A DNA stretch of 45,036 nt from Minisyncoccia bacterium (lineage in GTDB: Bacteria > Patescibacteriota > Minisyncoccia > Phycocordibacterales > UBA918). The translations under genes and the position numbers were made by a program. Each line of letters opens with the position of its first letter. Within the stretch, counting starts at the first letter, position 1. Below the pieces are notes generated by a model. That model saw only the letters and a list, made by a program, of their open reading frames with translations. It made no database searches and had not been told where the DNA came from. This document shows, one piece after another, positions 511 to 21,833 of this stretch. Location of the stretch: assembly GCA_041752975.1 (NCBI GenBank), contig JBGSVK010000088.1, positions 1 through 45,036 on the forward strand, in the 5' to 3' direction.

Positions 511-516
511 AAGGAG
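511..516 (+). promoter_or_regulatory. Shine-Dalgarno-like AAGGAG, 4 nt upstream of the ATG of the giant ORF
   Basis: aaggag at 511-516, then tatt, then ATG at 521. Confidence 0.6.
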
Positions 517-520
517 TATT

Positions 521-3500
521 ATGTTTTTTAGTGAGTCGGCACTTAAATCTATCTATACATATATTGTATACCTGACAAACAAGTTTTTAATTTTGTCGGT
601 GGTCTGTCTGACACTCCTTTTTTTTACAGCTGTAACTTTTGAAGCAAATGCAGCAGAGATAAAGCAGTACGACGCTGGTATTGTTGTCTATGCTGACGGA
701 TCGGCTGGTATTCCCAAGTATAAAGTTTTTGATGACCTGACTGGTTTAGGAGCTGAGCAGAGCGCAACCACTGTCGGCGGTACAGCTATTGAATGGATTC
801 GGGTTGCTGCTAGTCCCGTGCGGGACGAATGGATAATAGTCACCAGAGATGCTGGAGATAGAATCGCTGCCCAAGTTTGTACTGGTATTAACGATGGAAT
901 TTCCTGTGGAGCAACAACAACCATTAGTGCAACGGCTGGTACCCACGGTCTGCAAAACTTTGATGTCGCCTATGAACAGCTATCGGGACATGCCTTGATT
1001 GTCTATGGTACAGCTACGGCTGACGAACTTAGAAAAATTGAATGGGTCAACGGAGCTTGGACCAGTGATGCTGCAATCACGACCACAAAAACTAGTGGTA
1101 CTGTCGAATGGGTAGAGTTAACTTCTCAGCGAGGTAGTGACCAGATTGCTATTGGTTATGCTGATTCAAATGATGAAGTGAGTGCCTATCGTTGGAGTGG
1201 GACATCTGCGGCTAACGAAGCAACAGCAGTTATTACAGCAACCGCATCACAAGCTGATGTCCGCAAGTTTGATATTTCTTTTGAAGGTATTTCTGGCGAT
1301 ATGATTATAGCTTCACCACTAGCAAATGCCGGCACCACTGCTTTTGGGCACATGACTTCAGCTGGGACCTGGACGATTGTAGCCAACACTGAACCAGACA
1401 ACATTACGGCTTTTATTGACTTACAAGAGCAGGGACCAGATGATGATGTGGCGATGTTGGCCCATGGATCAACCACAGCCAACAATCCAACTGAGGGTTA
1501 CGAATTAAACGGAGCTACACCCAACACCACAACAACTGGTATGGTTGATGCTACGGTGGCTGTTGATACCACTACCACAGTCTGGGGAGTTAACTACATG
1601 ATGACCTCAGTAGCTTATCTTTCTCCAACTTATTATGCTGTCGGAGTTTTTTCTGATGTCACTGGGGCCGATGATATCAATTGGTTTACCATGAATAATG
1701 CCGGAGTTTGGACAGCCCAAACCGACAACACTAGAACTAGAGGCACGATTAGATTTACTAGTATGTTTGATTATCCAAATCAAAACAAAGTTTTGTTACT
1801 TTCATCTGACTCAAACAGTGATTTATGGATAGATACTAACGCCGGCACTACTACCGGCGCAACTGCTTGGGTAGATAGAACTAGTGCTGGCGCTGTCGAG
1901 ACAGCTCTTAGTTCAGCCACTACCAAAGTTTACGATTTTGCTTTTAGACTTTCTCCAGCAATTCTAGGTGTTTTGTATACTGATAACGGAATTACCGCCG
2001 ATACTTCAGGCCGGACTATCAAGATGGCGGTAGGGACTTCTACATTAAGTGTTCATACAGCTACTACTACGACCGGAGGAGAGTGGGCCTTCAACAACGT
2101 CTTAATAAATGCTACTAGTGGGACACCTTTTACGATTTGGCATGATGGCACTACTAACGACGCTACAACTATTGTCTCGGGATATGTAAACAGTTTTTCT
2201 ACTACTAGTTTGGCTAGCTCGAGTATTACCAATGTACCGCTGTACTACGGCCATACAGTTGTTTATGGCGCAACTAGTACAGCTTCTTCTACTGCTTCAA
2301 CCACCTCCCAAGTAAACTTTGCAAATTTTTATAACTACGACAGTACCGACGATGCAGACATACTTTACACTTTCCAAAGCACTTCTACTGCTACAACTTC
2401 TTCTCATTTATTTATCAAACAAGGAGAATTTATCCCAACCGAAAATTTAAATATAACTGGTGATTATACTAATCAAGGTAGGTTTGGTGGAGCAGGAGAA
2501 AACTGGCTTCCTCGAAGTGCTGACGCAAATGCTTGGTATGCTGTAACTTACGGTAATGGGATATTTGTAGCTGTTGCAGGCTCTGGTTCTAACCGGGTAA
2601 TGACTTCAACTGACGGTATTACTTGGACTCCCCGTTCGGTAGCTGGAAATAATGATATATGGGAAGATGTCACTTACGGCAATGGCATGTTTGTAGCTGT
2701 GGGTTCTGGAGCTTCGGGAGATCATGTTATGTATTCATCAGACGGTACTACGTGGACTACTACAACTGCGGCTGGGGATGATGATGCTTGGTATGAAGTT
2801 ACCTATGGAAACGGATTATTCGTGGCAGTTTCAGGAAGTGCCAATGGTACCACTCGAGTTATGACTTCACCCGACGGTATTACTTGGACAGCTGGTTCAG
2901 AGGCTGGAAACAATGACGATTGGTATAGTCTAGTCTACGGCAAAGGTATCTTTGTCGCAGTAGGTAACTCTACTGGTGCTGGGGATTCAGTTATGTATTC
3001 ATCAGACGGTATTACTTGGGCTACCTCGACCGCTCTAGGAGATAATGATTTATGGCTGTCAGTTACCTATGGAAACGGATTATTCGTGGCAGTAGGAAAT
3101 ACAGGAGATCGTATCATGACTTCTCCAGATGGTATTACCTGGACAGCTCGCTCGGCCGCTGGAGATAATGATGATTGGTTTGGTGTTACTTACGGTAATG
3201 GACTTTTTGTTGCAACTGGATATTCAGGAACTGATCGAGTAATAACTTCAGCTGATGGTATAAATTGGAAATTAGTATCTGCTGTTGGAAATGATGATGG
3301 TTGGAGAGATGTCACTTACGGCAATGGCATGTTTGTAGCTGTGGGTAATTCTGGTGATCGGGTCATGACCAGCAAGGACAGTAGTCTGTTCTTTAGTACT
3401 ACATCTCCTCAATTCTTGGCCGGAAATTTGACCGGAGCTTCGCAGTTACGAAATGTCACTTTTAATGGTTCGACTACCAACAATACAATTGCTCCTACCC

Positions 3501-6500
3501 ATGGCCTGCTAGGATACTGGAATTTTGAAAATTCGGAAGTTAACTGGACTTCTGCTTCGGCTGGAACAGTAAACGACCTTTCAGGTAACGGCTATACCGG
3601 AACTATGGCTAGTATGAGCTCTTCGACCTCACCAGTGATTGGAAAAGTCGGACAAGCTTTTGATTTTGATGCAGTTGATGATGCGGTCACTATAGATGCT
3701 GCTAGACAAGATGATTTTAATCCCGGAACTGGAAGCTTTTCGGTTTCAGTTTGGGCCAAGCCAGAGAACATCAATCAGACAGGTGCCTTTGTAGCAAAAA
3801 GAAGAAGTGGCGGAAATTATGAAAGATGGTGGGTTGGAGCTTGTATTACAACAGCTTGTACCGCTGGAAAAAGAATTTATTTTAGTAATATTGGGGTGAC
3901 ACCTGGCGATGCACGTGTTTTGATTACAAACTCAGACGTCGTTGATGGCAATTGGCATCATGTGGTTGCGGTAACAGATGCAGATAGTCAGACTATAAAA
4001 TTATATGTCGATGGCGTTGAACCAGCTTCAACTCTAACTAGTACGGGAGCTTGGCCAGATATTACTCATACGAGCCCGGTTCAGTTTGGTGCTTCTACAG
4101 CAGGTTCTTTTGAGTTAAACGGCGCTGTAGATGAAGTTCGCTATTATAATCGAGCTCTTTCGGCTGCTGAGGTGACTGCTCTCTACAATGAAAAGCCTAA
4201 AGTTTTTAGTGATAACGCATCGACTACAGATTTGACAATCAATAGCAGTATTGCAGTTGCTCCGAAAGCCCTAACCGTAGCAGGTAACTATACTAACTCA
4301 GATACCTTTAGAGCTGGTCTAGGCACAACTACTTTTTCGGGCAATGTACCTCAAACACTGTCTGGGAATATGACTGCCTCATCTTCTTTTTATAACGCAC
4401 ATTTTTTAGAAGCTGGTACTAAAAAACTTTTAAGTAACGCTTCGACCACAAATTTTTTCGTCGCTTCCTCTTCGGGTGATGTTGTTTTACCTCCTGCTTT
4501 TGATGTAAGCAGAGATTACACAAACAATGGAGTTACTACCCATGCTGGGGCAGTTTGGACTGCTCGAAGTGTGGCGGGGAACAATGACTCTTGGCGAGAC
4601 ATTACTTACGCTAACGGACTTTTTGTGGCGGTTGGTAATAGTGGCGATAGAGTAATCACTTCAACCGATGGTATTAACTGGGATGTACGCACACCGCCAG
4701 TTTCCGCTGGTTGGTACGGTGTTACCTATGGTAATGGGCTATATGTCGTCACTGCTTCTGGGGGTGAAATTATTACCTCCCCCGACGGTATTACTTGGAC
4801 ACAGAGAACTGCTCCGGCTGGGGGAGCGTGGCTAGATGTTGCTTATGGTAACGGAACTTTTGTGGCCGGAGGTTGGAACGCTTGTGCTACGGCTTGTTTA
4901 ATGTATTCAACTGATGGTATTAACTGGGCTACTACTACTCCTCCTGTAAATAATAGTTGGTATGGAGTGACCTATGGTGGTGGATTATTCGTGGCCGTTG
5001 GTTATGGAATTGTTACAAAATCAGTTATAACTAGCCCAGATGGTATCAATTGGACCGCACGAGATATTGGTGCTAATGATGGTCGATGGATTAGTGTTGA
5101 TTATGGAAATGGTATGTTTGTGGCTGTTGGTGGTTATCTAGATAATTCCCAAAAAGTTGCTACTTCACCCGATGGTATTAATTGGACAGTACGCTCAGTC
5201 TCTGGCAATAACGATAACTGGTGGGATGTAACTTTTTGTGACGGTCTGTTCGTGGCTGTGGCTACCTCTACTACTAATGGGGTGTTTACTTCTCCTGACG
5301 GTATTAATTGGCGAGAGTACCCGTCAGTATTTACAAGTATTAGCTATCAGAGTGATATCGCTTGTGGAAACGGAATAATGGTGGCGGTTTCTAGTGGTGA
5401 TACTAATCGGGTCATGACTGCCCATGACACTACGACATTTTTTAGTGGTTCGACATCTCAAAATATTAGTGGAAATTTAACCGGCGCCAGTACTTTTAGA
5501 GATGTGGTATTCAATGGAACTGGTTCCAAAACTTTTGCTAGTAGTTCAGCTTCAACTACTTCTTTTACAGTCGCTTCAACTAGCGGGGAGGTAATCACTC
5601 CACAAAATCTATCGGTTGCCGGTGATTATGAAAACAGAGGTAGTGTTGTGCAGGCCGGAAGAACTTGGTCAGTTGTAAGTGCTTTGGGCGACAATGATAC
5701 CTGGAGAGATGTTGTGTATGCCCAAGGTCTCTTTGTGGCAATTAGTAGTGGTGGCGATAGAATCATGACTTCGCCAGACGGTCTCATTTGGACAGTTCGA
5801 ACGGTGGGGACTAATAATAATTCAGAGGGTATTGCCTACGGTAATGGAATGTTCGTAGTGGTCGGAAATGCTCAAAGCGTGGTTCTGACTTCTCCTGACG
5901 GTCTTACTTGGTCAACAAGTACTGCACCGTCAGCCAGTGGTTGGAATGGAATTGCCTATGGTAACGGTCTCTTTGTGGCGGTTGCTGATACTGGTACTGA
6001 CCGCGTCATGACCTCTCCAGATGGAGTTAATTGGACAGCCAGAAGTGCTGCTGGTAATGACGATTATTGGTACGGTGTTACCTATGGTAATGGTCTATTC
6101 GTAGCTGTGGCCTACAGGACGACTGCAGATAGGATTATGACCTCTCCGGATGGAATTAACTGGACAGTCCGCAGTGTTGGTGGCAACGACGATGGCTGGA
6201 TACAAGCAGCCTACGGTAACGGCGTCTATGTGGCGGTTGCTTTTACTGGTAATGATAGAGTTGCTTATTCTTATGACGGTCTTACTTGGGCTACTACTTC
6301 TGTAGCCGGTAATGATGATAGTTGGTGGGGAGTAACCTACGGCAATGGTTTGTTTGTGGCGGTTGGTACCAGTACCAGTCATTCTGTAATAACTTCACCA
6401 GACGGTGTTAACTGGACAGCGGTTAGCGCGGCTGGAGACAATGATTCTTGGAGGTTTGTTACTTATGGCGATGGTAAGTTTGTGGCGGTTGGTTGTCATC

Positions 6501-15500: not shown

Positions 15501-18500
15501 CCTATACCGGTATTAGTTTTGATACTGCAGGAGCTGGTAATAATATTCCAAATGGAATTACCTATGCAGGTGGCTATTTCTGGGTCACAGATTGGGGAGA
15601 TGATAGGGTCTACCAATATACAGCTAGTGGAACTTATACAGGAAACTTCTTTGGGGACTCAAACACAATTAATGGTCCTACGGGTATTGTATACATTGAT
15701 GGTTATTTATGGGTGAATGGTTTTATAAATGTCAGGGCATATAAATTTAGTCTCGGACAACTTATTTCTGGTAATTTAACCGGTACAAGTGCTTTTAATA
15801 CCGTTGAGTTTGGTGATTCAAATCAAAAATTCATTATTACTCCATTAGGCACTACTGACTTTACAATCAAGGCAAATTCAGGCCCTGTAACTGCACCTAC
15901 AAGCACATTAACAATTAGTGGTAATTACACTAATAATAATTCAGATGGATTTATTCATAATTCCGGCACAACTACTTTTAATGGTTCTGTCAGTCAAATT
16001 CTCTCGGGAACAATGACTAACGTTTCTGCTTTTAATAATATCCTGTTCAGTGGTTCTGGTACTAAGACTTTCGCTAGTACTTCAGCTTCAACTACAAACT
16101 TTGTTGTGCAAAGTGGAAGTGGGGAAGTAATTGCTCCTTCGGCTTTAACTGTGTCCGGTAACTATTCTAATAACAGCACAACATCAATGTCAGGATCACG
16201 GTGGACAGCATACAGTGCAACTCAGGCTAATAGTTGGGGCTCATTAGCTTATGGTAACGGCAAATTTGTTGCTGTTTCATACAATGGAACAAATAGAGTT
16301 ATGTATTCAACTGACGGTATTACATGGGCGACCAGTACTGCCGCGCAAGCTAACTTATGGTTTGCTATAACTTACGGTAATGGCAAATTTGTCGCTGTTT
16401 CTGGTGACGGTACTAACCGTGTAATGTATTCAACTGACGGTATTACATGGGCGACCAGTACTGCCGCGCAAGCAAATCCATGGTATAGCGTCGCCTATGG
16501 TAACGGCAAATTTGTCGCTGTATCTTATAACGGTACTAACCGTGTAATGTATTCAACTGACGGTATTACATGGGCGACCAGTAGCGCTCCAGAAGCAAAC
16601 GCTTGGTACTCAGTCACTTACGGCAACGGTAAGTTTGTGGCCGTAGCTTGCGGAATTAATTCTACAACTTGTAATTTTACTGGTGGCGGTAGTCGTGTAA
16701 TGTCTTCAACTGATGGAATTAATTGGGTTGGTCACTCTGCTACTTCTGCGAGTGAATGGTACGCTGTGACCTACGGAAATGGGCTCTTTGTGGCAGTTGC
16801 AAGGTCCGGTTCTGATCTTATTATGACATCACCAGATGGTGCAAACTGGACTGCTCGAAGTGCTCCTGAGAGTAACTTCTGGTTGTCAGTCACCTATGGT
16901 AATGGCCTCTTTGTGGCTTTAGCTACTAATGGTACCAATCGTGTTATGACTTCACCAAACGGTATCACTTGGACCCCTTACATTGCAGCTGAAGATAATG
17001 CTTGGTATGACGTTGTCTATGGCAATGGTAAGTTTGTGGCGGTAGCAGGTAATGGCACCAACCGCGTCATGACCTCCGACGACACCACGGCCTTCTTCAA
17101 CAGTAGTGCCGACCAAACTATCTCTGGTAACCTAACTGGTGCCTCACAACTCCGTTCAGTTAACTTTGGTGGTTTAGGTACCAAGACTTTCTCTAGTAAC
17201 GCCTCTACTACCAACTTCTTTATCGCCACTTCGACCGCTACCGTCACGGCACCAACTATCCTCTCAGTCTCAGGTGATTTCACCAATCGCAGTAATTTCA
17301 ACGATAATAGTGGTACTGTCATTCTTTCTGGAGAAAACCAAACTGTCTTGGGTACTACCACCTTCCATAACCTCACTAAGTTTGCAACCGATAGAGCCAC
17401 TACCACCTTTGAAGCTGGTGCCTTATTCACTATCGAAAACAACTTCACTTTCTCTGGATATAATGCTACCAATACTCACGCTCTTCGCTCTAGTGTTGAC
17501 GGTACACAGTGGAAGATCGACCCACAAGGTACCCGCACCCTTTCATACCTAGACGTCAAAGATTCAAACAATATTAATGTCACAACCGTCAGTTGTGGTA
17601 CTGGCTGTATTGATGGTACCGGCAACACCAATTGGTCATTTGCTGGAGTAGGTTTTGACAACCTATCTTCAGGTGATAATTATCATTTCTATGTTGGACA
17701 AGGTACTACTACCCTAGATACTATTTTTATCACCTCAGAAGCCGCTGCCGCTACTGATCTCCGGCTCACCATCGCTACTACCACCACCAACTTCCGCTTT
17801 GATACCGGTACTACTAATCTGACTTTGACAGGAACTGGGGCTTCTAAAGTCAGTACTTCAGTGACTTATGAAAACGGTGGAGCAACTTTGGTTCTAAATG
17901 TTACCAATAATCTCAGTCTTGGCGATACCTTAGGGGTTAGTGGTATCAAGGTTGGAAGCTTTGCTAGTGTTAGTACAACTACTAGTGCGTTTACTCTTCA
18001 TACTGATGGAAACATAATCGGTGCTCCAGCAGCTACCGATAGTAAAACTATTCGTATTACTGGTCGACTAGCAGTTACTAACCACGCTTCAGGCCAAGTG
18101 GGTAATGAATTTAACTTCCAGAATAAAGTTGATAAACCAATCTTTGCTTTCAATCTGCAAGCTATAGGTGAGAACGCAACTATCACTGATATGGTCGTTA
18201 CTCTCAGTGGTGTCCAGGGCATTGATAGTTCAAATATCAGTGATTTCAAACTCTACCGAGACAACAACAATAATCAAACCTTAGACGGCCCTGACTTACT
18301 AATAGATGGCTCAGGTATCCTGACTGTTAATGGCCAACATGGTGCCATTACCTTCAGTACTGACTTCGTAGCTTCTTCTAGTGTTAACTACTTTGTGACC
18401 GCTGATATCAATTCAATCTCAGTTGGTGATGCTGTGGTCGTTAAGTTCCTTGCAAATGGTATTACCGCTCTTGGTGCTACATCACAGTATTCTCCAGTAG

Positions 18501-19159
18501 TTGTCGTTGATACGTCAGCTGTTCAACATGCTCGAGGTGGCAGTGGAGCTGGTGGTAGTAGTGCTCGCATTGGTGACGATGCTCCTCCGGGGGCGGGGGT
18601 AGTGACTGGTGGTGATGAAGGAGGAGGGGGAGAAGATGGAGCTGGAGAACCACAAGACGGAGCAAATATTGCCCCTGATAATGAATTCTTCCGCCCAACC
18701 ACTACTGGTAGTCCTGATAATGAATGGACTAATGGTGCAAACGCTCTCTTGTCTGATGGTACTTACGCTACAGCTGGTAACTCAAACCTCAAGCAAAGTT
18801 ACTCCAACTTCAACTTTGGTATTCCTACCAATAACACCATTCAAGGTATTGCCGTTAAAATAGACGCTTCTGGAACAACCCCGGCTGGAACCATCGATGT
18901 CTTGCTGTCTTGGGATGGTGGCGGTTCTTACACTGCAGCAAAAGCGACACCAACTCTCTCTGGTAGCGATGTTGTCTATACAGTCGGTGGACCTGGTGAT
19001 ACTTGGGGTCGAACATGGACAGCTTCAGAGTTTGGTTCACTCTTCCACTTACGAGTTTCAGCCCAGGTCTCTGCCAATAGTGTTCGCCTAGATGCTCTAG
19101 AGATTAGAGTCTATCACCAAGCTGGTGGCGGTGGTAGTGGTGGCGGTGGGGGGATTTAG
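521..19159 (+). CDS. Giant secreted or cell-surface mosaic protein (6,212 aa) with Asp-box-like beta-propeller arrays, LamG-like domains and NHL-like arrays
   Basis: Uninterrupted 18,639-nt ORF with a TAG stop. An RBS precedes the ATG. The N-terminal hydrophobic segment FLILSVVCLTLLFFTAVTF is followed by EANA|AE, which looks like a signal peptide. In-frame periodic repeats of 123-150 nt run throughout. There is no LPXTG motif and no C-terminal TM segment. Confidence 0.95.
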   Translation: MFFSESALKSIYTYIVYLTNKFLILSVVCLTLLFFTAVTFEANAAEIKQYDAGIVVYADGSAGIPKYKVFDDLTGLGAEQSATTVGGTAIEWIRVAASPVRDEWIIVTRDAGDRIAAQVCTGINDGISCGATTTISATAGTHGLQNFDVAYEQLSGHALIVYGTATADELRKIEWVNGAWTSDAAITTTKTSGTVEWVELTSQRGSDQIAIGYADSNDEVSAYRWSGTSAANEATAVITATASQADVRKFDISFEGISGDMIIASPLANAGTTAFGHMTSAGTWTIVANTEPDNITAFIDLQEQGPDDDVAMLAHGSTTANNPTEGYELNGATPNTTTTGMVDATVAVDTTTTVWGVNYMMTSVAYLSPTYYAVGVFSDVTGADDINWFTMNNAGVWTAQTDNTRTRGTIRFTSMFDYPNQNKVLLLSSDSNSDLWIDTNAGTTTGATAWVDRTSAGAVETALSSATTKVYDFAFRLSPAILGVLYTDNGITADTSGRTIKMAVGTSTLSVHTATTTTGGEWAFNNVLINATSGTPFTIWHDGTTNDATTIVSGYVNSFSTTSLASSSITNVPLYYGHTVVYGATSTASSTASTTSQVNFANFYNYDSTDDADILYTFQSTSTATTSSHLFIKQGEFIPTENLNITGDYTNQGRFGGAGENWLPRSADANAWYAVTYGNGIFVAVAGSGSNRVMTSTDGITWTPRSVAGNNDIWEDVTYGNGMFVAVGSGASGDHVMYSSDGTTWTTTTAAGDDDAWYEVTYGNGLFVAVSGSANGTTRVMTSPDGITWTAGSEAGNNDDWYSLVYGKGIFVAVGNSTGAGDSVMYSSDGITWATSTALGDNDLWLSVTYGNGLFVAVGNTGDRIMTSPDGITWTARSAAGDNDDWFGVTYGNGLFVATGYSGTDRVITSADGINWKLVSAVGNDDGWRDVTYGNGMFVAVGNSGDRVMTSKDSSLFFSTTSPQFLAGNLTGASQLRNVTFNGSTTNNTIAPTHGLLGYWNFENSEVNWTSASAGTVNDLSGNGYTGTMASMSSSTSPVIGKVGQAFDFDAVDDAVTIDAARQDDFNPGTGSFSVSVWAKPENINQTGAFVAKRRSGGNYERWWVGACITTACTAGKRIYFSNIGVTPGDARVLITNSDVVDGNWHHVVAVTDADSQTIKLYVDGVEPASTLTSTGAWPDITHTSPVQFGASTAGSFELNGAVDEVRYYNRALSAAEVTALYNEKPKVFSDNASTTDLTINSSIAVAPKALTVAGNYTNSDTFRAGLGTTTFSGNVPQTLSGNMTASSSFYNAHFLEAGTKKLLSNASTTNFFVASSSGDVVLPPAFDVSRDYTNNGVTTHAGAVWTARSVAGNNDSWRDITYANGLFVAVGNSGDRVITSTDGINWDVRTPPVSAGWYGVTYGNGLYVVTASGGEIITSPDGITWTQRTAPAGGAWLDVAYGNGTFVAGGWNACATACLMYSTDGINWATTTPPVNNSWYGVTYGGGLFVAVGYGIVTKSVITSPDGINWTARDIGANDGRWISVDYGNGMFVAVGGYLDNSQKVATSPDGINWTVRSVSGNNDNWWDVTFCDGLFVAVATSTTNGVFTSPDGINWREYPSVFTSISYQSDIACGNGIMVAVSSGDTNRVMTAHDTTTFFSGSTSQNISGNLTGASTFRDVVFNGTGSKTFASSSASTTSFTVASTSGEVITPQNLSVAGDYENRGSVVQAGRTWSVVSALGDNDTWRDVVYAQGLFVAISSGGDRIMTSPDGLIWTVRTVGTNNNSEGIAYGNGMFVVVGNAQSVVLTSPDGLTWSTSTAPSASGWNGIAYGNGLFVAVADTGTDRVMTSPDGVNWTARSAAGNDDYWYGVTYGNGLFVAVAYRTTADRIMTSPDGINWTVRSVGGNDDGWIQAAYGNGVYVAVAFTGNDRVAYSYDGLTWATTSVAGNDDSWWGVTYGNGLFVAVGTSTSHSVITSPDGVNWTAVSAAGDNDSWRFVTYGDGKFVAVGCHQQPCVTSTGSDRVMISYDTNTFFDGSNDQTISGDLTGDSLLRSVIFEEKGTKTFIDTASTTDFMVATSSGEVITSTNIAIAGDYENRGRVSHAGTVWATTSVAGNNDNWGDVIYAEDQFVAVGYSGDDRLMTSPDGLTWTVRTAPEANSWRGIAYGNGRYVAVSNTGTNRVIYSLDGINWATSSAAQANQWYAVTYGNGTFVAVSRDGTDRVMYSYNGINWATTSAAEVKEWWGITYGNGLFVAVTTTGGSNQVMTSPDGINWTARATTGIDGDWNAVTYGNGRFVAVSYNNDLVMWSDDGINWTASDVPNNDDWWDVTYGDGLFVAIGTSTAHSNLIMTSPDGITWTSREVPDGGESWYGIGYGNGRFVGVGYGGPSRVMTSSDTSTFFTSVNDQVISGNLTGASQLRAVNFEEKGSKTFEDNASTTNFTVGSASSTGEVIMPQNIDIAGDYANLGAVANFGVNWTTVTAAENDDNWGDVIYAEDQFVAVGYSGDDRLMTSPDGVNWTTVSVAGNNDGWNEITYGNGRFVAVSCGASCSTAGDVVMYSDDGVTWATTSAAGNNDDWYAVTYGNGVFVAGAIAGDTRVMNSTDGITWTPLSVLGDDDGWSAIVYGGGQFVAVARSGGNRIMTSPDGTNWTPQSALGDNDSWNSVTYGNGLYVASAFAGDHRLMTSPDGVNWTARYFPDSNNFTGSVRFLNGLFFAFNGNTARGHMTSPDGINWTVRSVAGDDDSWAHPAYGNGTLVYVSLGGSNRVMYSKVGTTTFNGSNAQDISGKLYGEGTFGNVQFTGEGAKTFSDRASTTNIYINNRATTTFASTLHVYDDFSASAGARISLADNATTTIKDQLLLAGTSTNLVYLVSETSGQASNLVLLGSSTITNTYVQDSNACGSIGGGITATSSTDGGNNTCWTFTSEGGAVNFYVTGILYEANRTTPYATSTTVKLNVATSTTNTFSTTTVATTGAFSFSVSAGTVATGTPITVFIDGSAVIKAVTVTKTANSGANTISNLPLYKNHVTIKNEATGTTTKASDLVHYDSVNDSDIQFTASSTLGTLNALGTTTLYVASGTTFHLDYPTTAHGFVVATTTSTVLASSTLTLTGNYANFGTFTAGTSTVYASSSAPTSAYTGFSFDTAASGNTTPQGIVSYGSYIYVTDNAGSQVYRYNSDGTYSGFTFDTAASGNSNPVGITVYNDYLYVVDLGDAEVYRYNLDGTYSGFSFDTAASGNALPYSITAYNDYFYVIDNTDDEVYRYNSDGTYSGFSFDTAASGNTSTFGITTYNGFLFSTDSTDTEVYIYTMTGAYTGVSFDIASSGNGTAYGITAHNGYFYIVDGADDEVYQYNVGQGFSGNMTGSSAFNDIVFTGSSGKDFVNNASTTGNFTISTSSGEVRAPLGLSIAGNYTNSTSTGFNANSGTTTFSGTGTQTIAGFATGTSAFDNVVFSGTGTKYFATSSSASTTNFVVNTGSGEVITSPALTVSGNYVNNSTTTMVGLNWVARSAAGNDDGWRGVTYGNGRFVAVSPGIDTVMTSPDGITWTAQTTAGITGQWWGVAYGEGLFVAVGVGSGADRLMTSPDGVNWTRRDIAGNDDNWRAVVYAQGQFVAVACGTNATTACSGAGDRVATSPDGITWTTFAIDPGNTDGWIGITYGNGLYVAVSAVGDQVMTSPDGVDWTAQTNPTGSWISVAYGNGNYVAVSYASTNRIMSSPDGVTWTSRLDSTGSKSLEYVIFANGTFVAVGNTVMTSPDGITWTEHTILRNNDAWRSMAYGNGRLVAVGIGGDRVMTLDDTSLIFSGNEDQTISGNLDGGSSFRSVSFTGSGIKTITNNASTTNFTIAAGTTVVAPVAVAIANNATNTGELITSAGDTWVSASGTEASIYYNVAFGEGIFVAVSSGGTKRVITSSDGINWTKRDAAEQNRWISVTYGDGKFVAVADSGTNRSMYSFDGITWATSSAAENNLWYGVTYGDGQFVAVSCSGTNRVMTSPDGISWSPQLAAEANCWTSVTYGGGQFVAVADSGTNRVMTSPDGINWSPQLAAEANSWNSISYGNGRFVSVAYSGTNRVMYSLDGITWATSSATQNIAWYGITYGNGMFLAVGTSTENNVMTSPDGITWTAYNGSENSVWWGAVYGNERFVVVGGSGSRAMASQEGRIYLNGSSAQTVTGTLTGTSRLANVTISNRVGTTTFGSALEVGTLNMPVIGSIAYLKSSATSTINNLNITGSSSQLTKLRSTTYGTQSSIDVVDSYDISYLDVKDSNACGSVNGWINAGDTSTDSGNNNCWFFFAGDGDTVTVTGVLYESDRITPYATSTLVKLNVATSTINTFSATTTAGTGAFSFSALISGNFATGTPVTIFTDGSAVIKAVTVTKSNGTTTLSSLPLYKDHITITNQGIGSTTKASDLVHYDSVTDSDIQFTASSTLGTLAVATGQTLYVASGTTFHLDYPTTAHTLEIATTSTFLASSTLSLSGNYQNNGTFYAGNSTTTFANNVEAQLIAGNLSGASTFNHLAFTSTSTQGSTDGLVGYWNFENNSTRWYTTTDGTFYDVSPYGNHGTDVAMFATTSVAGKIGQGITFDGVDDFIEVADDDSFTMGDNPVTIASWVKFTSAASTSYQFIVTQNNDSFELNKSSTNALRMEMICSNATARRANESVASLTQPDRWYHVVGIFTPTTGAFQFYVDGSSRAVTYIDAQSPCTIKDSSNLVWIGLRGGMFLKGSVDELRIYNRALDATEVAALYNEKPKIFNNDATANNFIVNSGIIVSPTNLNISGNYTNLGTYRGGISNTNFNGSGAQLLSGNMTESSTFASTTFSNTGTKTFADNASTTNFMIASSTTTVVAPSVLHVGGYYTNNGTFTNNSGTVLFGSEVTSIATYTGESFSTSGSGNANPTGSVIAEGYLWIADEVDDRIYKYNTDGTYTGVNFSTAGSGATNPHGLTYGDGYLWISDYVTSIVYQYTTAGTYTGFSFSITGAGAGGTPYGITFADGYLWIASDNQDDVYKFNTDGTYTGISFDTAGAGNNIPNGITYAGGYFWVTDWGDDRVYQYTASGTYTGNFFGDSNTINGPTGIVYIDGYLWVNGFINVRAYKFSLGQLISGNLTGTSAFNTVEFGDSNQKFIITPLGTTDFTIKANSGPVTAPTSTLTISGNYTNNNSDGFIHNSGTTTFNGSVSQILSGTMTNVSAFNNILFSGSGTKTFASTSASTTNFVVQSGSGEVIAPSALTVSGNYSNNSTTSMSGSRWTAYSATQANSWGSLAYGNGKFVAVSYNGTNRVMYSTDGITWATSTAAQANLWFAITYGNGKFVAVSGDGTNRVMYSTDGITWATSTAAQANPWYSVAYGNGKFVAVSYNGTNRVMYSTDGITWATSSAPEANAWYSVTYGNGKFVAVACGINSTTCNFTGGGSRVMSSTDGINWVGHSATSASEWYAVTYGNGLFVAVARSGSDLIMTSPDGANWTARSAPESNFWLSVTYGNGLFVALATNGTNRVMTSPNGITWTPYIAAEDNAWYDVVYGNGKFVAVAGNGTNRVMTSDDTTAFFNSSADQTISGNLTGASQLRSVNFGGLGTKTFSSNASTTNFFIATSTATVTAPTILSVSGDFTNRSNFNDNSGTVILSGENQTVLGTTTFHNLTKFATDRATTTFEAGALFTIENNFTFSGYNATNTHALRSSVDGTQWKIDPQGTRTLSYLDVKDSNNINVTTVSCGTGCIDGTGNTNWSFAGVGFDNLSSGDNYHFYVGQGTTTLDTIFITSEAAAATDLRLTIATTTTNFRFDTGTTNLTLTGTGASKVSTSVTYENGGATLVLNVTNNLSLGDTLGVSGIKVGSFASVSTTTSAFTLHTDGNIIGAPAATDSKTIRITGRLAVTNHASGQVGNEFNFQNKVDKPIFAFNLQAIGENATITDMVVTLSGVQGIDSSNISDFKLYRDNNNNQTLDGPDLLIDGSGILTVNGQHGAITFSTDFVASSSVNYFVTADINSISVGDAVVVKFLANGITALGATSQYSPVVVVDTSAVQHARGGSGAGGSSARIGDDAPPGAGVVTGGDEGGGGEDGAGEPQDGANIAPDNEFFRPTTTGSPDNEWTNGANALLSDGTYATAGNSNLKQSYSNFNFGIPTNNTIQGIAVKIDASGTTPAGTIDVLLSWDGGGSYTAAKATPTLSGSDVVYTVGGPGDTWGRTWTASEFGSLFHLRVSAQVSANSVRLDALEIRVYHQAGGGGSGGGGGI
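2501..3378 (+). repeat. Propeller array 1 of 8: seven tandem blade repeats with the (Y/F)GNGxFVAVG ... (M/I)TSxDGxxW signature
   Basis: I counted seven YG(N/K)G motifs, each followed by SxDGxxW. This is Asp-box-like but one residue shorter than the canonical BNR motif SxDxGxTW. The array spans about 293 aa. Confidence 0.8.
3500..4207 (+). other. LamG / concanavalin-A-like lectin domain, copy 1 (Laminin_G_3-like)
   Basis: The segment runs from HGLLGYWNFEN through FDFDAVDD, FSVSVWAKP and NWHHVVAV to GAVDEVRYYNRALSAAEVTALYNEKPKVF. This is the typical LamG_3 pattern, including the (V/I)DE(V/L)R(I/Y)YNRAL(S/T)xxE(I/V) ending. Confidence 0.75.
4550..5428 (+). repeat. Propeller array 2 of 8 (seven blades)
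   Basis: Seven (Y/F/C)(A/G/C)(N/G/D)G motifs alternate with SxDGI(N/T)W, from AVWTARSVAGNNDSW to NRVMTAHD. Confidence 0.8.
5660..6553 (+). repeat. Propeller array 3 of 8 (seven blades)
   Basis: Seven blades from RTWSVVSALGDNDTW to SDRVMISYD, with the same motif pair. Confidence 0.8.
6782..7654 (+). repeat. Propeller array 4 of 8 (seven blades)
   Basis: Seven blades from TVWATTSVAGNNDNW to SRVMTSSD. The first blade shares a 92-nt identical tract with the first blade of array 5. Confidence 0.8.
7889..8782 (+). repeat. Propeller array 5 of 8 (seven blades)
   Basis: Seven blades from VNWTTVTAAENDDNW to NRVMYSKV. Confidence 0.8.
9257..9739 (+). repeat. About 160-aa Thr-rich beta-sandwich-like module (VTGILYE...LYVASGTTFHLDYPTTAH), copy 1
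   Basis: This aligns along its full length with 13358-13837 at high protein similarity and roughly three-quarters nucleotide identity by eye. A more distant copy lies at about 1958-2390 (ILGVLYTDNG...). No family assignment is possible from sequence alone. Confidence 0.7.
9878..10537 (+). repeat. NHL-like array 1: five tandem 44-aa repeats (132-nt period)
   Basis: Five copies of Y(S/T)GFSFDTAASGNxxPxGITxYNxYxYVxDxxDxEVYRYNxDGT, spanning exactly 660 nt. The P-x-G-I ... Y-V-x-D ... V-Y-x-Y pattern matches the NHL/YVTN-type blade logic. Confidence 0.7.
10973..11857 (+). repeat. Propeller array 6 of 8 (seven blades)
   Basis: Seven blades from LNWVARSAAGNDDGW to GDRVMTLDD. Confidence 0.8.
12086..12940 (+). 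repeat. Propeller array 7 of 8 (seven blades; strict 123-nt period in its centre)
   Basis: Seven blades from DTWVSASGTEASIYY to SRAMASQE. Positions 12428-12491 and 12551-12614 differ at a single base. Confidence 0.8.
13358..13837 (+). repeat. About 160-aa Thr-rich module, copy 2 (VTGVLYESDR...LYVASGTTFHLDYPTTAH)
   Basis: Paralogous to 9257-9739. Shared strings include TPYATST.VKLNVATST.NTFS, GTP(I/V)T(V/I)F(I/T)DGSAVIKAVTVTK and KASDLVHYDSV(N/T)DSDIQFTASSTLGTL. Confidence 0.7.
14048..14719 (+). other. LamG / concanavalin-A-like lectin domain, copy 2
   Basis: The segment runs from DGLVGYWNFENN through ITFDGVDDFIEV and RWYHVVGIF to GSVDELRIYNRALDATEVAALYNEKPKIF. It is paralogous to 3500-4207. 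Confidence 0.75.
15104..15760 (+). repeat. NHL-like array 2: five tandem repeats of about 44 aa
   Basis: Five copies of YTGxxFSTxGSGxxNPxG(I/L)T(Y/F)xDGYLW(I/V)xDxxxDx(I/V)Y(K/Q)(Y/F)xTxGT. Confidence 0.7.
16196..17083 (+). repeat. Propeller array 8 of 8 (seven blades; three near-identical 123-nt units)
   Basis: Seven blades from SRWTAYSATQANSW to NRVMTSDD. Exact repeats: 16301-16350 = 16424-16473 and 16407-16460 = 16530-16583. Confidence 0.85.
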
Positions 19160-19256: not shown

Positions 19257-19958
19257 ATGAACACAAAACATTATTTTACAGTGGCTACACAAGCATTGAT
19301 TGCTTCCACGTTAATTTTGGCGATGTTGGGGGCAGGCTACTTGTTTGCAGAGCCACAAGTGGGTAGGGCACAAGCCACAAGTACTTTTACCATCTCTCAA
19401 TTAATTACCGGAGAAATTTCCTTCTTGGTTTATGGTGCCACCACCACTTTGTCAGGACCTTTAAATGGTATTACTGGAGGTACAGCTAACGGTTCAACAA
19501 GTGTAAAGGTACAAACCAACAGTGCGACAGGCTATGTGATGGATATTAAATTTGCCACTACCTCAACCGGTAATGCTATGCAAGCTTCAAATAATCCAAC
19601 AGCTTCAATTCATGACTTACCAGCCTCAAGTACTGAGCCTCATTACTTATTCTCAACCGCTAGTACCGCTGCAGTATTTGGCTATACCATCTCGGCTCCA
19701 CAAGCTTCAGATATTGCGCAAGCTTTTCTAGATGATAGTTCTGGTGCCTGTAATCAGCCTGGTGGAGATGCTAATGAGGATACTTGTTGGATGGAGCCAA
19801 GTTTTGCAAATTATCGTGTAGTTGATAGAGATAGTGCAGCGACTATTGGAGCTACTACCACGATTCATTTCCGTGTTCATGTACCAAACAACCCAGCTCC
19901 TGGCCTTGTAGCAGATACTTATGTTGCTACTGCCACCTTGACGGCAGCCAACCAATAG
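19257..19958 (+). CDS. Secreted 233-aa protein, candidate degenerate WxL-domain-like surface protein (paralogue of 21057..21833)
   Basis: It has an N-terminal signal-like segment (ALIASTLILAMLGAGYLFA). It shares LNGITGGTANGSTSVKVQTNSATGYVMDIKF and the C-terminal GATTTIHFRVHV...ADTYVATATLTA with the 258-aa paralogue. The family call is pattern recognition only. Confidence 0.85.
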   Translation: MNTKHYFTVATQALIASTLILAMLGAGYLFAEPQVGRAQATSTFTISQLITGEISFLVYGATTTLSGPLNGITGGTANGSTSVKVQTNSATGYVMDIKFATTSTGNAMQASNNPTASIHDLPASSTEPHYLFSTASTAAVFGYTISAPQASDIAQAFLDDSSGACNQPGGDANEDTCWMEPSFANYRVVDRDSAATIGATTTIHFRVHVPNNPAPGLVADTYVATATLTAANQ

Positions 19959-19973
19959 AGTTACTGTAGTCGG

Positions 19974-21053: not shown

Positions 21054-21056
21054 ACT

Positions 21057-21833
21057 ATGTTTTTAAGTTCTTTCTACAAAACCTTCGTTCAGGCATTAAT
21101 TTTGACAGCGATTTTTTTGGTAACACTGGCTATTACTGGTGCTCAAGTGAGGACGAGTCCAAGCTACCAGCTACAGAGCGATAGTGTTAACTTTGGTGGT
21201 GGTCTTTCTACCTCTACCAACTATGGTTTAGAGAGTACGGCGGGTGAAGTAGCTACTGGAGATTCAGAAAGCTCTACCTATCGTTTGCGAGCTGGCTATC
21301 AGCAGATGCAGGAAGTTTATTTGAGTATGACAGAAGCATTGGACGTTGTTATGTCGCCAAATCTGGGGGGTTTAACAGGGGGTACTGCTAATGGTTCAAC
21401 AAGTGTATCGGTTTTGACTGATAGTCCTAGTGGCTATCAGCTTACTATTCAGGCTGAATCAGCGCCTGCTATGCAGATGATTTCGCTTCTTGAATCAATT
21501 TCAGATTATAGTCCTATTGATTCTCCTGAAGCGGATTATACTTTTACTACGTCTGCTAGTGATGCACACTTTGGTTATTCTCCAGAGGGAGTAGATATTG
21601 TCACTTACTTTAAAGACGATGGAATTTCTATTTGTGGTTCAGGGCTTCTTGATACAGCGCTTACTTGCTGGGACGGTCTTACTACTTCTGAGGTAATAAT
21701 TGCTCAAGGTCCCGCCAATCAACCAGATGGTGCAACAACAACAATTAATTTTAGAGTTGGGGTTGGAGCAAATGCCGGGGTAATTGCTGGCACTTATGTC
21801 GCTACTACTACTTTGACAGCAATTCCAATATGA
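21057..21833 (+). CDS. Secreted 258-aa paralogue of 19257..19958 (degenerate WxL-like candidate)
   Basis: It has a signal-like N-terminus and three S-x-(N/S/T)-Y-x-L repeats (SPSYQL, STNYGL, SSTYRL). Shared strings are LGGLTGGTANGSTSVSVLTDSPSGYQLTIQA and the C-terminal GATTTINFRVGV...AGTYVATTTLTA. It starts 3 nt after the previous stop and ends in TGA. Confidence 0.85.
   Translation: MFLSSFYKTFVQALILTAIFLVTLAITGAQVRTSPSYQLQSDSVNFGGGLSTSTNYGLESTAGEVATGDSESSTYRLRAGYQQMQEVYLSMTEALDVVMSPNLGGLTGGTANGSTSVSVLTDSPSGYQLTIQAESAPAMQMISLLESISDYSPIDSPEADYTFTTSASDAHFGYSPEGVDIVTYFKDDGISICGSGLLDTALTCWDGLTTSEVIIAQGPANQPDGATTTINFRVGVGANAGVIAGTYVATTTLTAIPI

What the first reader, a model, noticed from the sequence alone, without database searches (positions are those of the whole stretch)
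521..19159. One 18.6-kb ORF encodes a 6,212-aa secreted mosaic of 56 propeller blades, two LamG lectin folds and two NHL-like arrays
The ORF is unbroken for 18,639 nt. It has an RBS, a signal-peptide-like N-terminus and a regular modular layout that I mapped by hand. There are eight arrays of exactly seven blades each, carrying the (Y/F)GNGxFVAVG and SxDGxxW motifs. These lie at 2501-3378, 4550-5428, 5660-6553, 6782-7654, 7889-8782, 10973-11857, 12086-12940 and 16196-17083. Two LamG/ConA-like domains lie at 3500-4207 and 14048-14719, and two five-repeat NHL-like arrays at 9878-10537 and 15104-15760. The Asp-box here is systematically one residue shorter than the canonical BNR motif SxDxGxTW. 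Multiple propellers combined with lectin folds point to a multivalent carbohydrate or host-surface binding fibre. In a reduced-genome organism, devoting this much coding sequence to one protein implies a central role, for example attachment to a host cell. That functional reading is inference. I do not recognise the overall architecture as a described family.
Basis: partly seen in the sequence, partly recalled or inferred. Interest (0 to 1): 0.85.

Follow-up and report, generated by a model that had tools for sequence, protein, structure and literature searches.

The report
Giant modular surface fibre of a CPR bacterium
A single intact 18.6-kb gene in a tiny-genome (Parcubacteria-type) bacterium encodes a 6,212-residue secreted protein made of rod-like scaffold cassettes that carry many plug-in binding domains; it is one member of a widespread but undescribed family that sits at a conserved locus and most likely serves to grip other cells.

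Summary
ORF 521-19159 is unbroken (6,212 aa). It has 8 arrays of exactly 7 blades, two Laminin_G_3 domains and two five-repeat arrays, all at the stated coordinates. An AlphaFold2 model of one array (pLDDT 89.8) matches seven-bladed propellers, with Ycf48 as the top hit. The "NHL-like" arrays are better called Vgb-lyase-family blades.

- A ninth, lectin-like propeller at the N-terminus.
- A higher-order grammar: three "X ... CAP" scaffold cassettes of solenoid-like linker coils, with the binding domains inserted between the coils.
- A conserved C-terminal cassette.
- The protein is not unique. Dozens of 2,000-7,400-aa metagenomic proteins use the same grammar.

In six Parcubacteria/Nomurabacteria-type loci, a giant gene with the same scaffold and C-terminus lies at the same position. 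Four small surface-protein genes follow it (two pilin-like, one WxLIP/PamC-like membrane-anchored, one FnIII+TM), then GAPDH. The inserted binding domains differ between genomes.

Best reading: a Sec-exported multivalent adhesin or host-recognition fibre, anchored through its conserved C-terminus with help from the downstream cluster. Function is inferred. This is a new variant of a known kind (giant CPR surface proteins) and is moderately interesting.

The parts
511..516 (+). Shine-Dalgarno AAGGAG, 4 nt before the ATG
   Evidence: sequence
521..19159 (+). giant ORF, 6,212 aa plus stop
521..652 (+). signal peptide (aa 1-44: long n-region, hydrophobic core aa ~22-41, ANA|AE cleavage-type motif)
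   Evidence: conservation with homologues begins right after it
656..1960 (+). N-terminal propeller (aa 46-480), lectin-like; shared at 52-62% identity (one divergent fragment 46%) with N-termini of 385-1,154-aa Giovannonibacteria/Brennerbacteria-type proteins
1949..2443 (+). X domain 1 (start of scaffold cassette 1)
   Evidence: HMM of X2/X3 matches aa 477-641; weak self-similarity
2501..3385 (+). seven-bladed YGNG/short-Asp-box propeller 1
3500..4198 (+). LamG/ConA-like domain 1 (Laminin_G_3)
   Evidence: 92.3 bits
4553..5434 (+). propeller 2
5663..6559 (+). propeller 3 (modelled with flanking linkers)
6785..7660 (+). propeller 4
7892..8788 (+). propeller 5
8921..9244 (+). CAP module 1 (..DSNACG..GGNNTCWTF), end of cassette 1
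9254..9844 (+). X domain 2 (70-75% identical to X3), start of cassette 2
9866..10540 (+). five 44-aa Vgb-lyase-like blades, array 1
   Evidence: 36.3 bits, below cut-off
10976..11863 (+). propeller 6
12089..12946 (+). propeller 7
13022..13348 (+). CAP module 2
13355..13939 (+). X domain 3, start of cassette 3
14048..14710 (+). LamG/ConA-like domain 2
   Evidence: 82.3 bits
15092..15766 (+). five Vgb-lyase-like blades, array 2
   Evidence: PF24684, 60.2 bits, above cut-off 50
16199..17089 (+). propeller 8
17336..17647 (+). CAP module 3
17636..19156 (+). conserved C-terminal cassette: CTA (aa 5706-5860), CTB (5860-6000), Gly-rich linker, CTC (6045-6200), Gly-rich tail AGGGGSGGGGGI
   Evidence: 38-58% identity to C-termini of family members
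6816..6907 (+). exact 92-nt repeat, copy 1 (copy 2 at 7923-8014, 1,107 nt away, in frame)
19257..19958 (+). 233-aa secreted pilin-like protein, paralogue of the 258-aa protein
19974..21053 (+). 359-aa WxLIP/PamC-like protein: N-terminal signal, Ig-like region, C-terminal TM helix
21057..21833 (+). 258-aa PamT-like protein
   Evidence: NF058579, 46 bits, E 3.8e-12, far below cut-off 240
21830..23533 (+). 567-aa FnIII-containing protein with C-terminal TM helix

Best explanation
The gene encodes a Sec-exported giant cell-surface fibre of a Parcubacteria (Nomurabacteria-like) CPR bacterium.

After the signal peptide comes a lectin-like beta-propeller. Three scaffold cassettes follow. Each starts with an "X" domain, runs through ~75-aa linker units of three ~25-residue coils (probably beta-solenoid) and ends in a Cys-containing "CAP" module. 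Ligand-binding domains are inserted between the coil sets: eight seven-bladed Ycf48/DUF6242-type propellers, two LamG domains and two five-blade Vgb-lyase-like arrays.

A C-terminal cassette (CTA-CTB-Gly linker-CTC-Gly tail) is conserved across the whole family. I infer that it holds the fibre on the producer's envelope, together with the four co-conserved downstream genes (two pilin-like proteins, a membrane-anchored WxLIP/PamC-like protein and an FnIII+TM protein). The variable N-terminal and inserted domains would then project outward and bind surface glycans or proteins of a host cell multivalently.

Shown: ORF integrity, domain identities and folds, the module grammar, family membership, and the conserved synteny with variable inserts.

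Inferred: solenoid geometry, which end is anchored, the ligand class, and the role in host attachment.
For: - ORF and export signals.
- Propellers: AF2 model pLDDT 89.8, pTM 0.89; Foldseek hits Ycf48 and Vgb lyase.
- N-terminal propeller: pLDDT ~80-90 over aa 50-478 (the alignment behind the model has only 16 sequences); best structural matches are the Photorhabdus PHL/PLL and fungal AAL/AofleA fucose lectins.
- LamG. Vgb_lyase blades.
- Linkers are modelled as short regular strands with high confidence.
- The X...CAP grammar occurs three times here and recurs in P0136-P0253.
- The C-terminal cassette is 38-58% identical in P0138, P0160, P0161, P0163, P0288 and P0289, while the N-terminal heads and inserted propellers differ.
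- Locus order giant - 233 - 359 - 258 - 567 - GAPDH - RpiB - Rpe - Tkt is conserved in L010, L012, L013 and L014, and partly in L011.
- The 359-aa protein matches WxLIP_PGBD (25.7 bits) and EfmWxLIP1 in the PDB (E 1e-3), and has a C-terminal TM helix. In Firmicute WxL clusters, WxLIP is proposed (from structure prediction and docking) to bind and stabilise large host-binding WxL proteins on the wall (PMC10599100).
- The 258-aa protein hits CPR pilus PamT. The Pam system is described in bioRxiv 10.64898/2026.03.03.709456.
- The same propeller type sits in phage tail-fibre-like proteins at 30-43% identity and rmsd 1.6-2.1, and in a Paenibacillus "tail fiber protein".
- Giant surface proteins of CPR bacteria are already inferred to mediate host attachment (PMC8080830).
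Against: - No ligand, localisation or expression data exist.
- The giant protein has no recognisable anchoring motif: no LPXTG, no WxL domain, and no convincing second TM segment (only a marginal 1.67 window at aa 3823-3824).
- Profile-profile comparison finds no homology between its C-terminal domains and the neighbouring pilin-like proteins, so physical coupling to the downstream cluster rests on synteny alone.
- The PamT and WxLIP matches fall below the curated cut-offs.
- In three related genomes the gene is fragmented. This could be assembly or sequencing error in a repetitive gene, but it could also mean the gene is dispensable.
Confidence: 0.6

Rival explanations
1. The protein is mainly an extracellular polysaccharide- or cell-wall-degrading enzyme array. 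The propellers would act as sialidase/GH-type or lyase catalytic domains that attack the host envelope, rather than as binding modules.
For: The best structural relatives of the folds include enzymes: Vgb lyase, and sialidases appear among lower-ranked hits for the N-terminal domain. Giant Omnitrophota proteins have been linked to cell-wall degradation (bioRxiv 10.1101/2023.11.21.568195).
Against: No glycoside-hydrolase, sialidase-catalytic or lyase family passes threshold, apart from the blade-level Vgb_lyase match of only 5 of 7 blades. The blades are minimal (38-52 aa) and near-identical in consensus, leaving little loop material for active sites. The top hit Ycf48 and the PHL/PLL/AAL lectins are binding proteins. 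The same propeller occurs in tail-fibre-type phage proteins.
Confidence: 0.1
2. It is a structural envelope component of the bacterium itself, such as an S-layer-like coat or spacer fibre. Its many domains would serve self-assembly or protection rather than recognition of another cell.
For: The composition is Thr/Gly/Ser/Ala/Asn-rich, low in charge and nearly Cys-free, which is typical of extracellular structural proteins. The scaffold and C-terminus are conserved. The gene sits next to housekeeping genes at a fixed chromosomal position in six genomes.
Against: Between orthologous loci the inserted domains are swapped for different propeller types while the scaffold is kept (LVIVD/Kelch-like in P0160, YGNG/Vgb in P0138 and here). 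That pattern is expected for a diversifying recognition surface, not a self-assembling coat. Lectin-type folds dominate.
Confidence: 0.15
3. The giant protein is the tip adhesin or cargo of a Pam-type or WxL-type donor-strand filament built by the four downstream genes. On this reading it is physically part of a pilus rather than an independent fibre.
For: The five-gene order is conserved in six loci. There is a PamT-like hit. A WxLIP-like protein carries a C-terminal TM helix, as PamC/PamD do. The FnIII+TM protein resembles PamR in architecture. In a Brennerbacteria locus, a protein with the same N-terminal propeller ends in a domain homologous to the adjacent 196-aa pilin-like protein (E 6e-47), next to a homologue of the 359-aa protein. 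This mirrors the adhesin-plus-pilin-domain logic of chaperone-usher and WxL systems.
Against: hhalign finds no similarity between CTA/CTB/CTC and the pilin-like neighbours (probabilities <1%). The PamT score of 46 bits is far below the 240-bit cut-off. No PamA or PamB homologue was detected at E<=1. A 98-nt gap separates the giant ORF from the next gene.
Confidence: 0.25
4. The unbroken 18.6-kb ORF is an assembly artefact: a chimeric or collapsed repeat.
For: The gene is repetitive. One 92-nt exact repeat lies 1,107 nt from its copy, in frame. Related genomes show the gene broken at contig ends or by frameshifts.
Against: All other internal repeats are at most ~80% identical at the DNA level. 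The frame is open throughout, and every module boundary is regular. Intact orthologues of 3,121 and 5,201 aa exist at the same locus.
Confidence: 0.05

Closest known systems
Giant multidomain surface proteins of CPR/Patescibacteria (e.g. Vampirococcus lugosii, ten proteins of 1,392-4,163 aa; PMC8080830)
   Same: Reduced-genome epibiont-type bacterium; very large predicted surface proteins built from interaction domains; inferred role in host recognition and attachment.
   Different: Those proteins are described with WD40, PKD, integrin, fibronectin and DUF11 domains. The X-linker-CAP grammar, the YGNG propellers, the conserved C-terminal cassette and the fixed locus with a WxLIP/Pam-like cluster are not described there. 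At 6,212 aa this protein is also larger.
Ycf48/HCF136 and BNR/Asp-box seven-bladed propellers; Pfam DUF6242 (PF19755)/EPTP-type blades
   Same: Seven four-stranded blades, with an Asp-box-like S-x-D-G-x-x-W turn between strands 3 and 4. Ycf48 is the top Foldseek hit. Close homologues (45-52% identical) score above the DUF6242 cut-off.
   Different: The motif is one residue shorter than canonical SxDxGxTW. There is no BNR or PSII_BNR profile hit. The giant protein's own best DUF6242 score is 24.2 bits against a cut-off of 29. Here the propeller is an insert in a scaffold, repeated eight times.
[quoted passage not shown]
   Same: The gene-cluster logic is the same: a large host-binding protein, small secreted beta-proteins and a membrane-anchored Ig-like WxLIP-type protein. 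The 359-aa protein matches WxLIP_PGBD and EfmWxLIP1.
   Different: No WxL domain or W-x-L motifs appear in the giant or the small proteins. The WxLIP match is below the Pfam cut-off. The organism is a CPR bacterium, not a Firmicute.
Pam pilus of Ca. Mycosynbacter amalyticus (PamA/B pilins, PamC/D TM-anchored chaperones, PamT tip, PamR FnIII anchor; bioRxiv 10.64898/2026.03.03.709456)
   Same: CPR-specific; the 258-aa neighbour hits the PamT model; a chaperone-like protein with a C-terminal TM helix and an FnIII+TM protein are present.
   Different: The PamT score is far below the equivalog cut-off. No PamA or PamB homologues were detected. No giant protein is described as part of the pam operon (that paper mentions only a "tail fibre-like protein" in pam neighbourhoods).
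Phage tail fibres / receptor-binding proteins carrying the same propeller
   Same: The YGNG propeller occurs at 30-43% identity in viral proteins that also carry intramolecular-chaperone or collagen-like fibre domains, and in a Paenibacillus "tail fiber protein" with Phage_fiber_2. The logic is also the same: a modular scaffold with swappable distal binders.
   Different: The gene is chromosomal, with no phage genes nearby. It has one giant chain with eight copies, whereas those viral and Paenibacillus proteins carry the propeller within much shorter chains (about 300-1,400 aa).

Membership tests
BNR/Asp-box repeat (Pfam PF02012; sialidase-type) | Repeated SxDxGxTW motif recognised by the BNR profile | tested here: not met
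   No BNR or PSII_BNR hit at E<=0.01 for any segment, or at E<=5 for propeller 3. The motif is SxDGxxW, one residue shorter.
BNR/Asp-box repeat (Pfam PF02012; sialidase-type) | Six- or seven-bladed beta-propeller with the Asp-box in the strand 3-4 turn | tested here: met
   The AF2 model has 7 x 4 strands and the motif lies between strands 3 and 4. Ycf48 is the top Foldseek hit, E 1.4e-13.
DUF6242 (PF19755)/EPTP-like propeller | Profile score above the gathering threshold | tested here: inconclusive
   Giant protein: DUF6242 24.2 bits against 29. EPTP whole-protein scores of 25-32 bits exceed the 21 cut-off, but no single stretch passes. Homologues at 41-45% identity to the query unit (P0016, P0023 and P0078) score 32.5-37.8 bits on DUF6242.
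Laminin_G_3 / ConA-like lectin-glucanase (PF13385) | Full-length profile match above threshold | tested here: met
   92.3 bits (profile 4-150 of 151) and 82.3 bits (1-151 of 151) against a cut-off of 27.6.
NHL repeat (PF01436) | NHL profile match | tested here: not met
   No NHL hit at E<=5 for either array.
Virginiamycin B lyase family (PF24684) | Profile score above threshold | tested here: inconclusive
   Array 2 scores 60.2 bits (cut-off 50); array 1 scores 36.3 bits. PDB 2z2n matches at E 5e-4.
Virginiamycin B lyase family (PF24684) | Complete seven-bladed domain with the catalytic His/Glu/Mg site | tested here: not met
   Only five 44-aa repeats per array, covering profile positions ~64-230 of 290. 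Catalytic residues were not examined.
WxL cluster (Firmicutes) | WxLIP: DUF916 + DUF3324 + C-terminal TM helix | tested here: inconclusive
   The 359-aa protein scores 25.7 bits on WxLIP_PGBD against 27.3. EfmWxLIP1 matches at E 1e-3. An N-terminal signal and a C-terminal TM helix are present. There is no DUF3324 hit.
WxL cluster (Firmicutes) | C-terminal WxL domain on the large protein and a small WxL-only protein | tested here: not met
   No WxL Pfam hit in the giant protein's C-terminus or in the 233/258-aa proteins. No dual W-x-L motif is visible.
Pam pilus (CPR) | PamT equivalog match | tested here: not met
   NF058579 scores 46.1 bits against a cut-off of 240, covering only profile positions 7-129 of 241.
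Pam pilus (CPR) | Major pilins PamA/PamB in the operon | tested here: inconclusive
   No NCBIfam hit other than PamT for the neighbours at E<=1. I do not know whether the library holds PamA/PamB models. The Pam paper reports that sequence searches miss distant PamA homologues.
Pam pilus (CPR) | TM-anchored chaperone and FnIII terminator/anchor | not testable with these tools
X-linker-CAP mosaic giant proteins (unnamed family defined here) | One or more X...CAP cassettes with LNK coils, then CTB and usually CTA/CTC and a Gly-rich tail | tested here: met
   HMMs built from the giant protein recover the same order in P0136, P0138, P0145, P0160, P0163, P0180, P0288 and P0289.

The most novel reading that the evidence does not exclude
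Nomurabacteria-type Parcubacteria keep a fixed "host-recognition locus". It consists of a giant fibre gene built from X-solenoid-CAP scaffold cassettes into which binding propellers or lectins are swapped between lineages (much as phage tail fibres are rebuilt), plus a four-gene WxLIP/Pam-related module that anchors or assembles the fibre through its invariant C-terminal cassette. If so, this would be a previously undescribed surface-display system, and the main genetic determinant of host range in these uncultured epibionts.
Probability: 0.3. Interest if true: 0.7.

Novelty: new variant of a known kind. Interest (0 to 1): 0.55.

Why it matters
CPR/Patescibacteria are thought to live attached to host cells, but for Parcubacteria neither the hosts nor the attachment machinery are known. 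This gene takes up roughly 2-3% of a genome of the size seen in its relatives (0.6-1.0 Mb contigs). It lies at a locus conserved in at least six genomes, and it keeps its scaffold and C-terminus while exchanging its binding modules. That pattern points to a concrete, testable candidate for the host-recognition determinant and for its anchoring partners. It also offers a way to predict host range from the inserted modules. The individual ~300-aa propellers, the LamG domains and the N-terminal lectin-like domain are small enough to express and screen on glycan arrays or candidate host cells.

Tried and rejected
- Whole-protein homologue searches failed: 6,212 aa was over the length limit, and 4,999 aa timed out. 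I searched segments instead.
- PDB sequence searches found nothing useful for the propeller, the cap+X region or the C-terminal cassette.
- Pfam and NCBIfam gave nothing for the N-terminal 660 aa, cap/X or the C-terminus.
- I tested whether the giant protein's C-terminal domains are pilin-like, that is, homologous to the 233/258-aa neighbours or to the Brennerbacteria pilin-like domain. hhalign probabilities were <1%, so I rejected this.
- There is no LPXTG-type sorting signal in the giant protein, although a sortase-like ORF lies at 44223-44936.
- A self-BLASTP of the full protein returned nothing usable. A tiled search was used instead.
- The genome-contig scan with the N-terminal domain did not find the source genome (best 61% identity), so the organism is named only by its relatives.
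- Promoter and terminator scans around the gene were not informative.
- Rfam and tRNA scans found only tRNA-Thr at 34839-34913.
- The literature search for DUF6242 gave only a Bacteroides BAM-associated lipoprotein, which is not informative here.
- I could not inspect model coordinates, so the claim that the flanking linkers stack into one solenoid remains an inference.
Full report
**Observation**

The window holds a single ATG-initiated ORF at 521..19159 on the + strand, 6,212 codons long. My own translation has no internal stop. AAGGAG lies at 511-516. The only strongly hydrophobic stretch is aa ~14-45, followed by ANA|AE. This behaves like a Sec signal peptide with a long n-region. The one other window above the 1.6 hydropathy threshold (aa 3823-3824, 1.67) is marginal.

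Motif mapping gives eight arrays, each with seven (Y/F)GNGxFVAV blades of 38-52 residues. Blades 1-6 of each array carry SxDGxxW, for 56 blades in total.

Internal repeats are divergent at the DNA level, at most ~80% identical. The exception is one exact 92-nt repeat (6816-6907 and 7923-8014), whose copies are 1,107 nt apart and in frame. That is the only spot where an assembler could add or drop a unit.

**What the modules are**

- **LamG domains.** Pfam confirms two full-length Laminin_G_3 domains at 92.3 and 82.3 bits against a cut-off of 27.6.
- **Seven-blade arrays.** No segment hits BNR, PSII_BNR or NHL models. The blades give only weak EPTP and sub-threshold DUF6242 matches.
- **Structure of one array.** I built an alignment of the eight paralogous units plus 55 homologues. 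It gave an AlphaFold2 model of aa 1640-2090 (linker-propeller-linker) with mean pLDDT 89.8 and pTM 0.89, showing 7 x 4 strands. Foldseek against the PDB ranks Ycf48 first (E 1.4e-13). It gives the closest superposition on virginiamycin B lyase (TM 0.87, rmsd ~2.5). Both are seven-bladed propellers. The seven-blade claim and the Ycf48-like guess therefore hold.
- **The short Asp-box.** SxDGxxW sits in the strand 3-4 turn. It is a family-wide trait: the consensus over 63 sequences is MTSPDGITWT.
- **How common the propeller is.** It is extremely common. 7,268 of 8,000 scored candidates reached E<=1e-5, at 45-52% identity. They come from Paenibacillus, Bacteroidota (with T9SS sorting domains), Acidobacteria, Mesorhizobium, Nomurabacteria and Andersenbacteria. 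Most are 400-800-aa single-propeller proteins named "hypothetical", "DUF6242 domain-containing" or "tail fiber protein".
- **The propeller in phages.** It appears in viral proteins with tail-fibre features at 30-43% identity and rmsd 1.6-2.1, and in nine phage genomes.
- **The "NHL-like" arrays.** Each is five 44-aa repeats that match Pfam Vgb_lyase (PF24684). Array 2 scores 60.2 bits (cut-off 50) and array 1 scores 36.3 bits. Both also match PDB virginiamycin B lyase and LRP YWTD propellers weakly. Whether five blades close into a propeller could not be tested.

1. **A ninth propeller.** The N-terminal 435 residues after the signal peptide are 52-62% identical (46% for one divergent fragment) to the N-termini of 15 proteins of 385-1,154 aa. 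These come from Giovannonibacteria- and Brennerbacteria-type organisms and share nothing further downstream. The AF2 model is confident over aa ~50-478 (pLDDT ~80-90), though the alignment has only 16 sequences. It is all-beta and best matches the Photorhabdus PHL/PLL propeller lectins (E 3.6e-10, TM 0.65) and the fungal fucose lectins AAL/AofleA.
2. **A higher-order grammar.** Tiled self-comparison and module HMMs give the following layout:
   - NTD
   - [X - P - LamG - P - P - P - P - CAP]
   - [X - Vgb - P - P - CAP]
   - [X - LamG - Vgb - P - CAP]
   - CTA - CTB - Gly-rich linker - CTC - Gly-rich tail

   Here P is a seven-blade propeller. Every inserted domain is flanked by ~75-aa linker units made of three ~25-residue coils with the pattern ..F.G...Q.ISGNLTG.S.F..V.F.G.G.KTF...ASTTNF.V...SGEV..P..L.V.G.Y.N.G. 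In the model these linkers are short regular strands at pLDDT 85-94. I read them as beta-solenoid rungs with the propeller as an excursion. This is inference, because I could not see the coordinates.
3. **The architecture is not unique.** An exhaustive HMMER search with aa 2760-3480 found 2,127 relatives (147 at E<=1e-30), including proteins of 2,091-7,400 aa. The same X...LNK...CAP cassettes and the same C-terminal cassette, ending ..RVYHQA.GGGGGGGG.I, recur in P0136, P0138, P0145, P0160, P0161, P0163 and P0180. Their N-terminal heads and inserted propellers are of different kinds. All are unnamed or "hypothetical".

**Genomic context**

The neighbouring genes are typical of CPR bacteria: GAPDH, RpiB, Rpe, a split transketolase, PfkB, L25, RF, S2, EF-Ts, a short PheS, PheT and GyrB.

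Four tightly packed genes lie directly downstream of the giant gene, on the same strand:
- Two paralogous 233- and 258-aa secreted proteins, 42% identical over 160 aa. The 258-aa protein hits NCBIfam "CPR-type pilus protein PamT" at 46 bits, E 3.8e-12, far below the 240-bit cut-off.
- A 359-aa protein with an N-terminal signal and a C-terminal TM helix. It matches WxLIP_PGBD at 25.7 bits (cut-off 27.3) and PDB EfmWxLIP1 at E 1e-3.
- A 567-aa FnIII protein with a C-terminal TM helix.

The order giant - ~233 - ~355 - ~255 - ~530 (fn3) - GAPDH - RpiB - Rpe - Tkt is conserved in several assemblies:

| Locus | Assembly | State of the giant gene |
|---|---|---|
| L010 | GCA_964399295.1 | Cut by the contig start and by a frameshift |
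| L012 | GCA_020632095.1, Ca. Nomurabacteria | Split over many frames |
| L013 | GCA_040384005.1 | P0138, 3,121 aa, intact, with a second giant upstream |
| L014 | GCA_021733405.1 | P0160, 5,201 aa, intact |
| L011 | Parcubacteria OLB19 | Order only partly covered |

 Housekeeping proteins are 67-91% identical to those of the window. The four small proteins are 30-62% identical, and the C-terminal cassette 38-58%.

The inserted binding domains differ. P0160 carries LVIVD- and Kelch-like repeats. P0138 carries YGNG and Vgb-like modules.

In a Brennerbacteria locus, an 840-aa protein with the same N-terminal propeller ends in a domain homologous to the adjacent 196-aa protein (E 6e-47). A homologue of the 359-aa protein follows.

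**Interpretation**

The best-supported reading is a Sec-exported, multivalent surface fibre. The conserved parts are the scaffold and the C-terminal cassette. The variable parts are lectin-type and propeller binding modules, which are exchanged between orthologous loci. This is the pattern expected of a recognition surface under diversifying pressure, and it parallels the modular rebuilding of phage tail fibres.

By analogy with C-terminally anchored Gram-positive surface proteins, I infer that the invariant C-terminus is the cell-proximal end. The closest analogy is the Firmicute WxL cluster, where a membrane-anchored WxLIP is proposed to bind and stabilise a large host-binding protein on the wall (PMC10599100). 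On this view the co-conserved four-gene module anchors or assembles the fibre.

The module also resembles the CPR Pam pilus in architecture: a tip-like pilin, a TM-anchored chaperone and an FnIII anchor (bioRxiv 10.64898/2026.03.03.709456).

There is evidence against direct coupling:
- hhalign finds no homology between the giant protein's C-terminal domains and the pilin-like neighbours.
- All Pam and WxLIP matches are sub-threshold.
- No LPXTG or WxL motif exists in the giant protein.

Ligand class and host attachment are untested. The general idea that giant CPR surface proteins mediate host attachment is already in the literature (PMC8080830).

**Rivals**

- **Enzymatic array.** Unlikely. 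No catalytic family passes threshold, the blades are minimal, and the closest folds are binding proteins.
- **Purely structural coat.** Disfavoured by the swapping of inserts between orthologous loci.
- **Pilus-tip adhesin.** This is a sub-variant of the main model and remains open at about 0.25.
- **Assembly artefact.** Unlikely given divergent repeats and intact orthologues, but it needs long reads around the 92-nt repeat.

**Novelty and score**

Giant adhesin-like surface proteins of CPR bacteria are a known kind, and each constituent fold is known. The following appear to be undescribed, based on literature searches:
- the X-solenoid-CAP cassette grammar;
- the shared C-terminal cassette;
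- the fixed locus with a WxLIP/Pam-related four-gene module;
- the lineage-specific exchange of inserted binders.

I rate it a new variant of a known kind, interest 0.55. It gives a concrete, testable candidate for host recognition in Parcubacteria, but no function has been shown.

Noticed in passing
window 19257-23533: Four-gene cluster right after the giant gene: two paralogous pilin-like proteins (one PamT-like), a WxLIP/PamC-like protein with a C-terminal TM helix, and an FnIII protein with a C-terminal TM helix. It is conserved with the giant gene in at least five other genomes. It may link Firmicute WxL clusters and the CPR Pam pilus evolutionarily.
   Followed up: partly
L006 6638-11716 (contig JBKKCM010000057.1, binned as Nitrosarchaeum sp.): An open frame of at least 1,693 aa in a contig assigned to a thaumarchaeal MAG contains, internally, a copy of the N-terminal lectin-like propeller at 58% identity to the CPR protein. 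It also carries a LamG-like segment and long Ser/Thr repeats. This is either cross-domain transfer or a mis-binned contig.
   Followed up: partly
L005 9803-13980 / L008 8001-12082 (Ca. Brennerbacteria): An 808-840-aa protein with the same N-terminal propeller ends in a ~160-aa domain homologous to the adjacent 196-aa secreted protein (E 6e-47), followed by a homologue of the 359-aa WxLIP-like protein. This is an adhesin-plus-pilin-domain arrangement.
   Followed up: partly
window 44223-44936: A sortase-like ORF (best match class D sortase, 47 bits, below cut-off). No LPXTG-type signal was found in the giant protein.
   Followed up: partly
window 338-382: A perfect ~21-bp inverted repeat (tttgggttgctgataaatttt ccc aaaatttatcagcaacccaaa) lies about 140 nt upstream of the giant gene's start. 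It could be a terminator of an upstream unit or an operator-like element.
   Followed up: no
window 6816-6907 and 7923-8014: An exact 92-nt repeat sits inside otherwise ~76%-identical propeller-4 and propeller-5 units (both encode NWGDVIYAEDQFVAVGYSGDDRLMTSPDG). This suggests recent gene conversion, or it is a point where the assembly could mis-join.
   Followed up: partly
L013 1-7613: The related genome GCA_040384005.1 carries a second giant gene (more than 2,536 aa visible; rich in Vgb-like arrays, with the same CAP and CTB-CTC end) immediately upstream of the orthologous giant. The locus can therefore hold tandem paralogues.
   Followed up: partly
window 34839-34913: tRNA-Thr (TGT), the only RNA gene detected in the window. 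It lies in the ~1-kb gap between EF-Ts and a glycosyltransferase gene.
   Followed up: no
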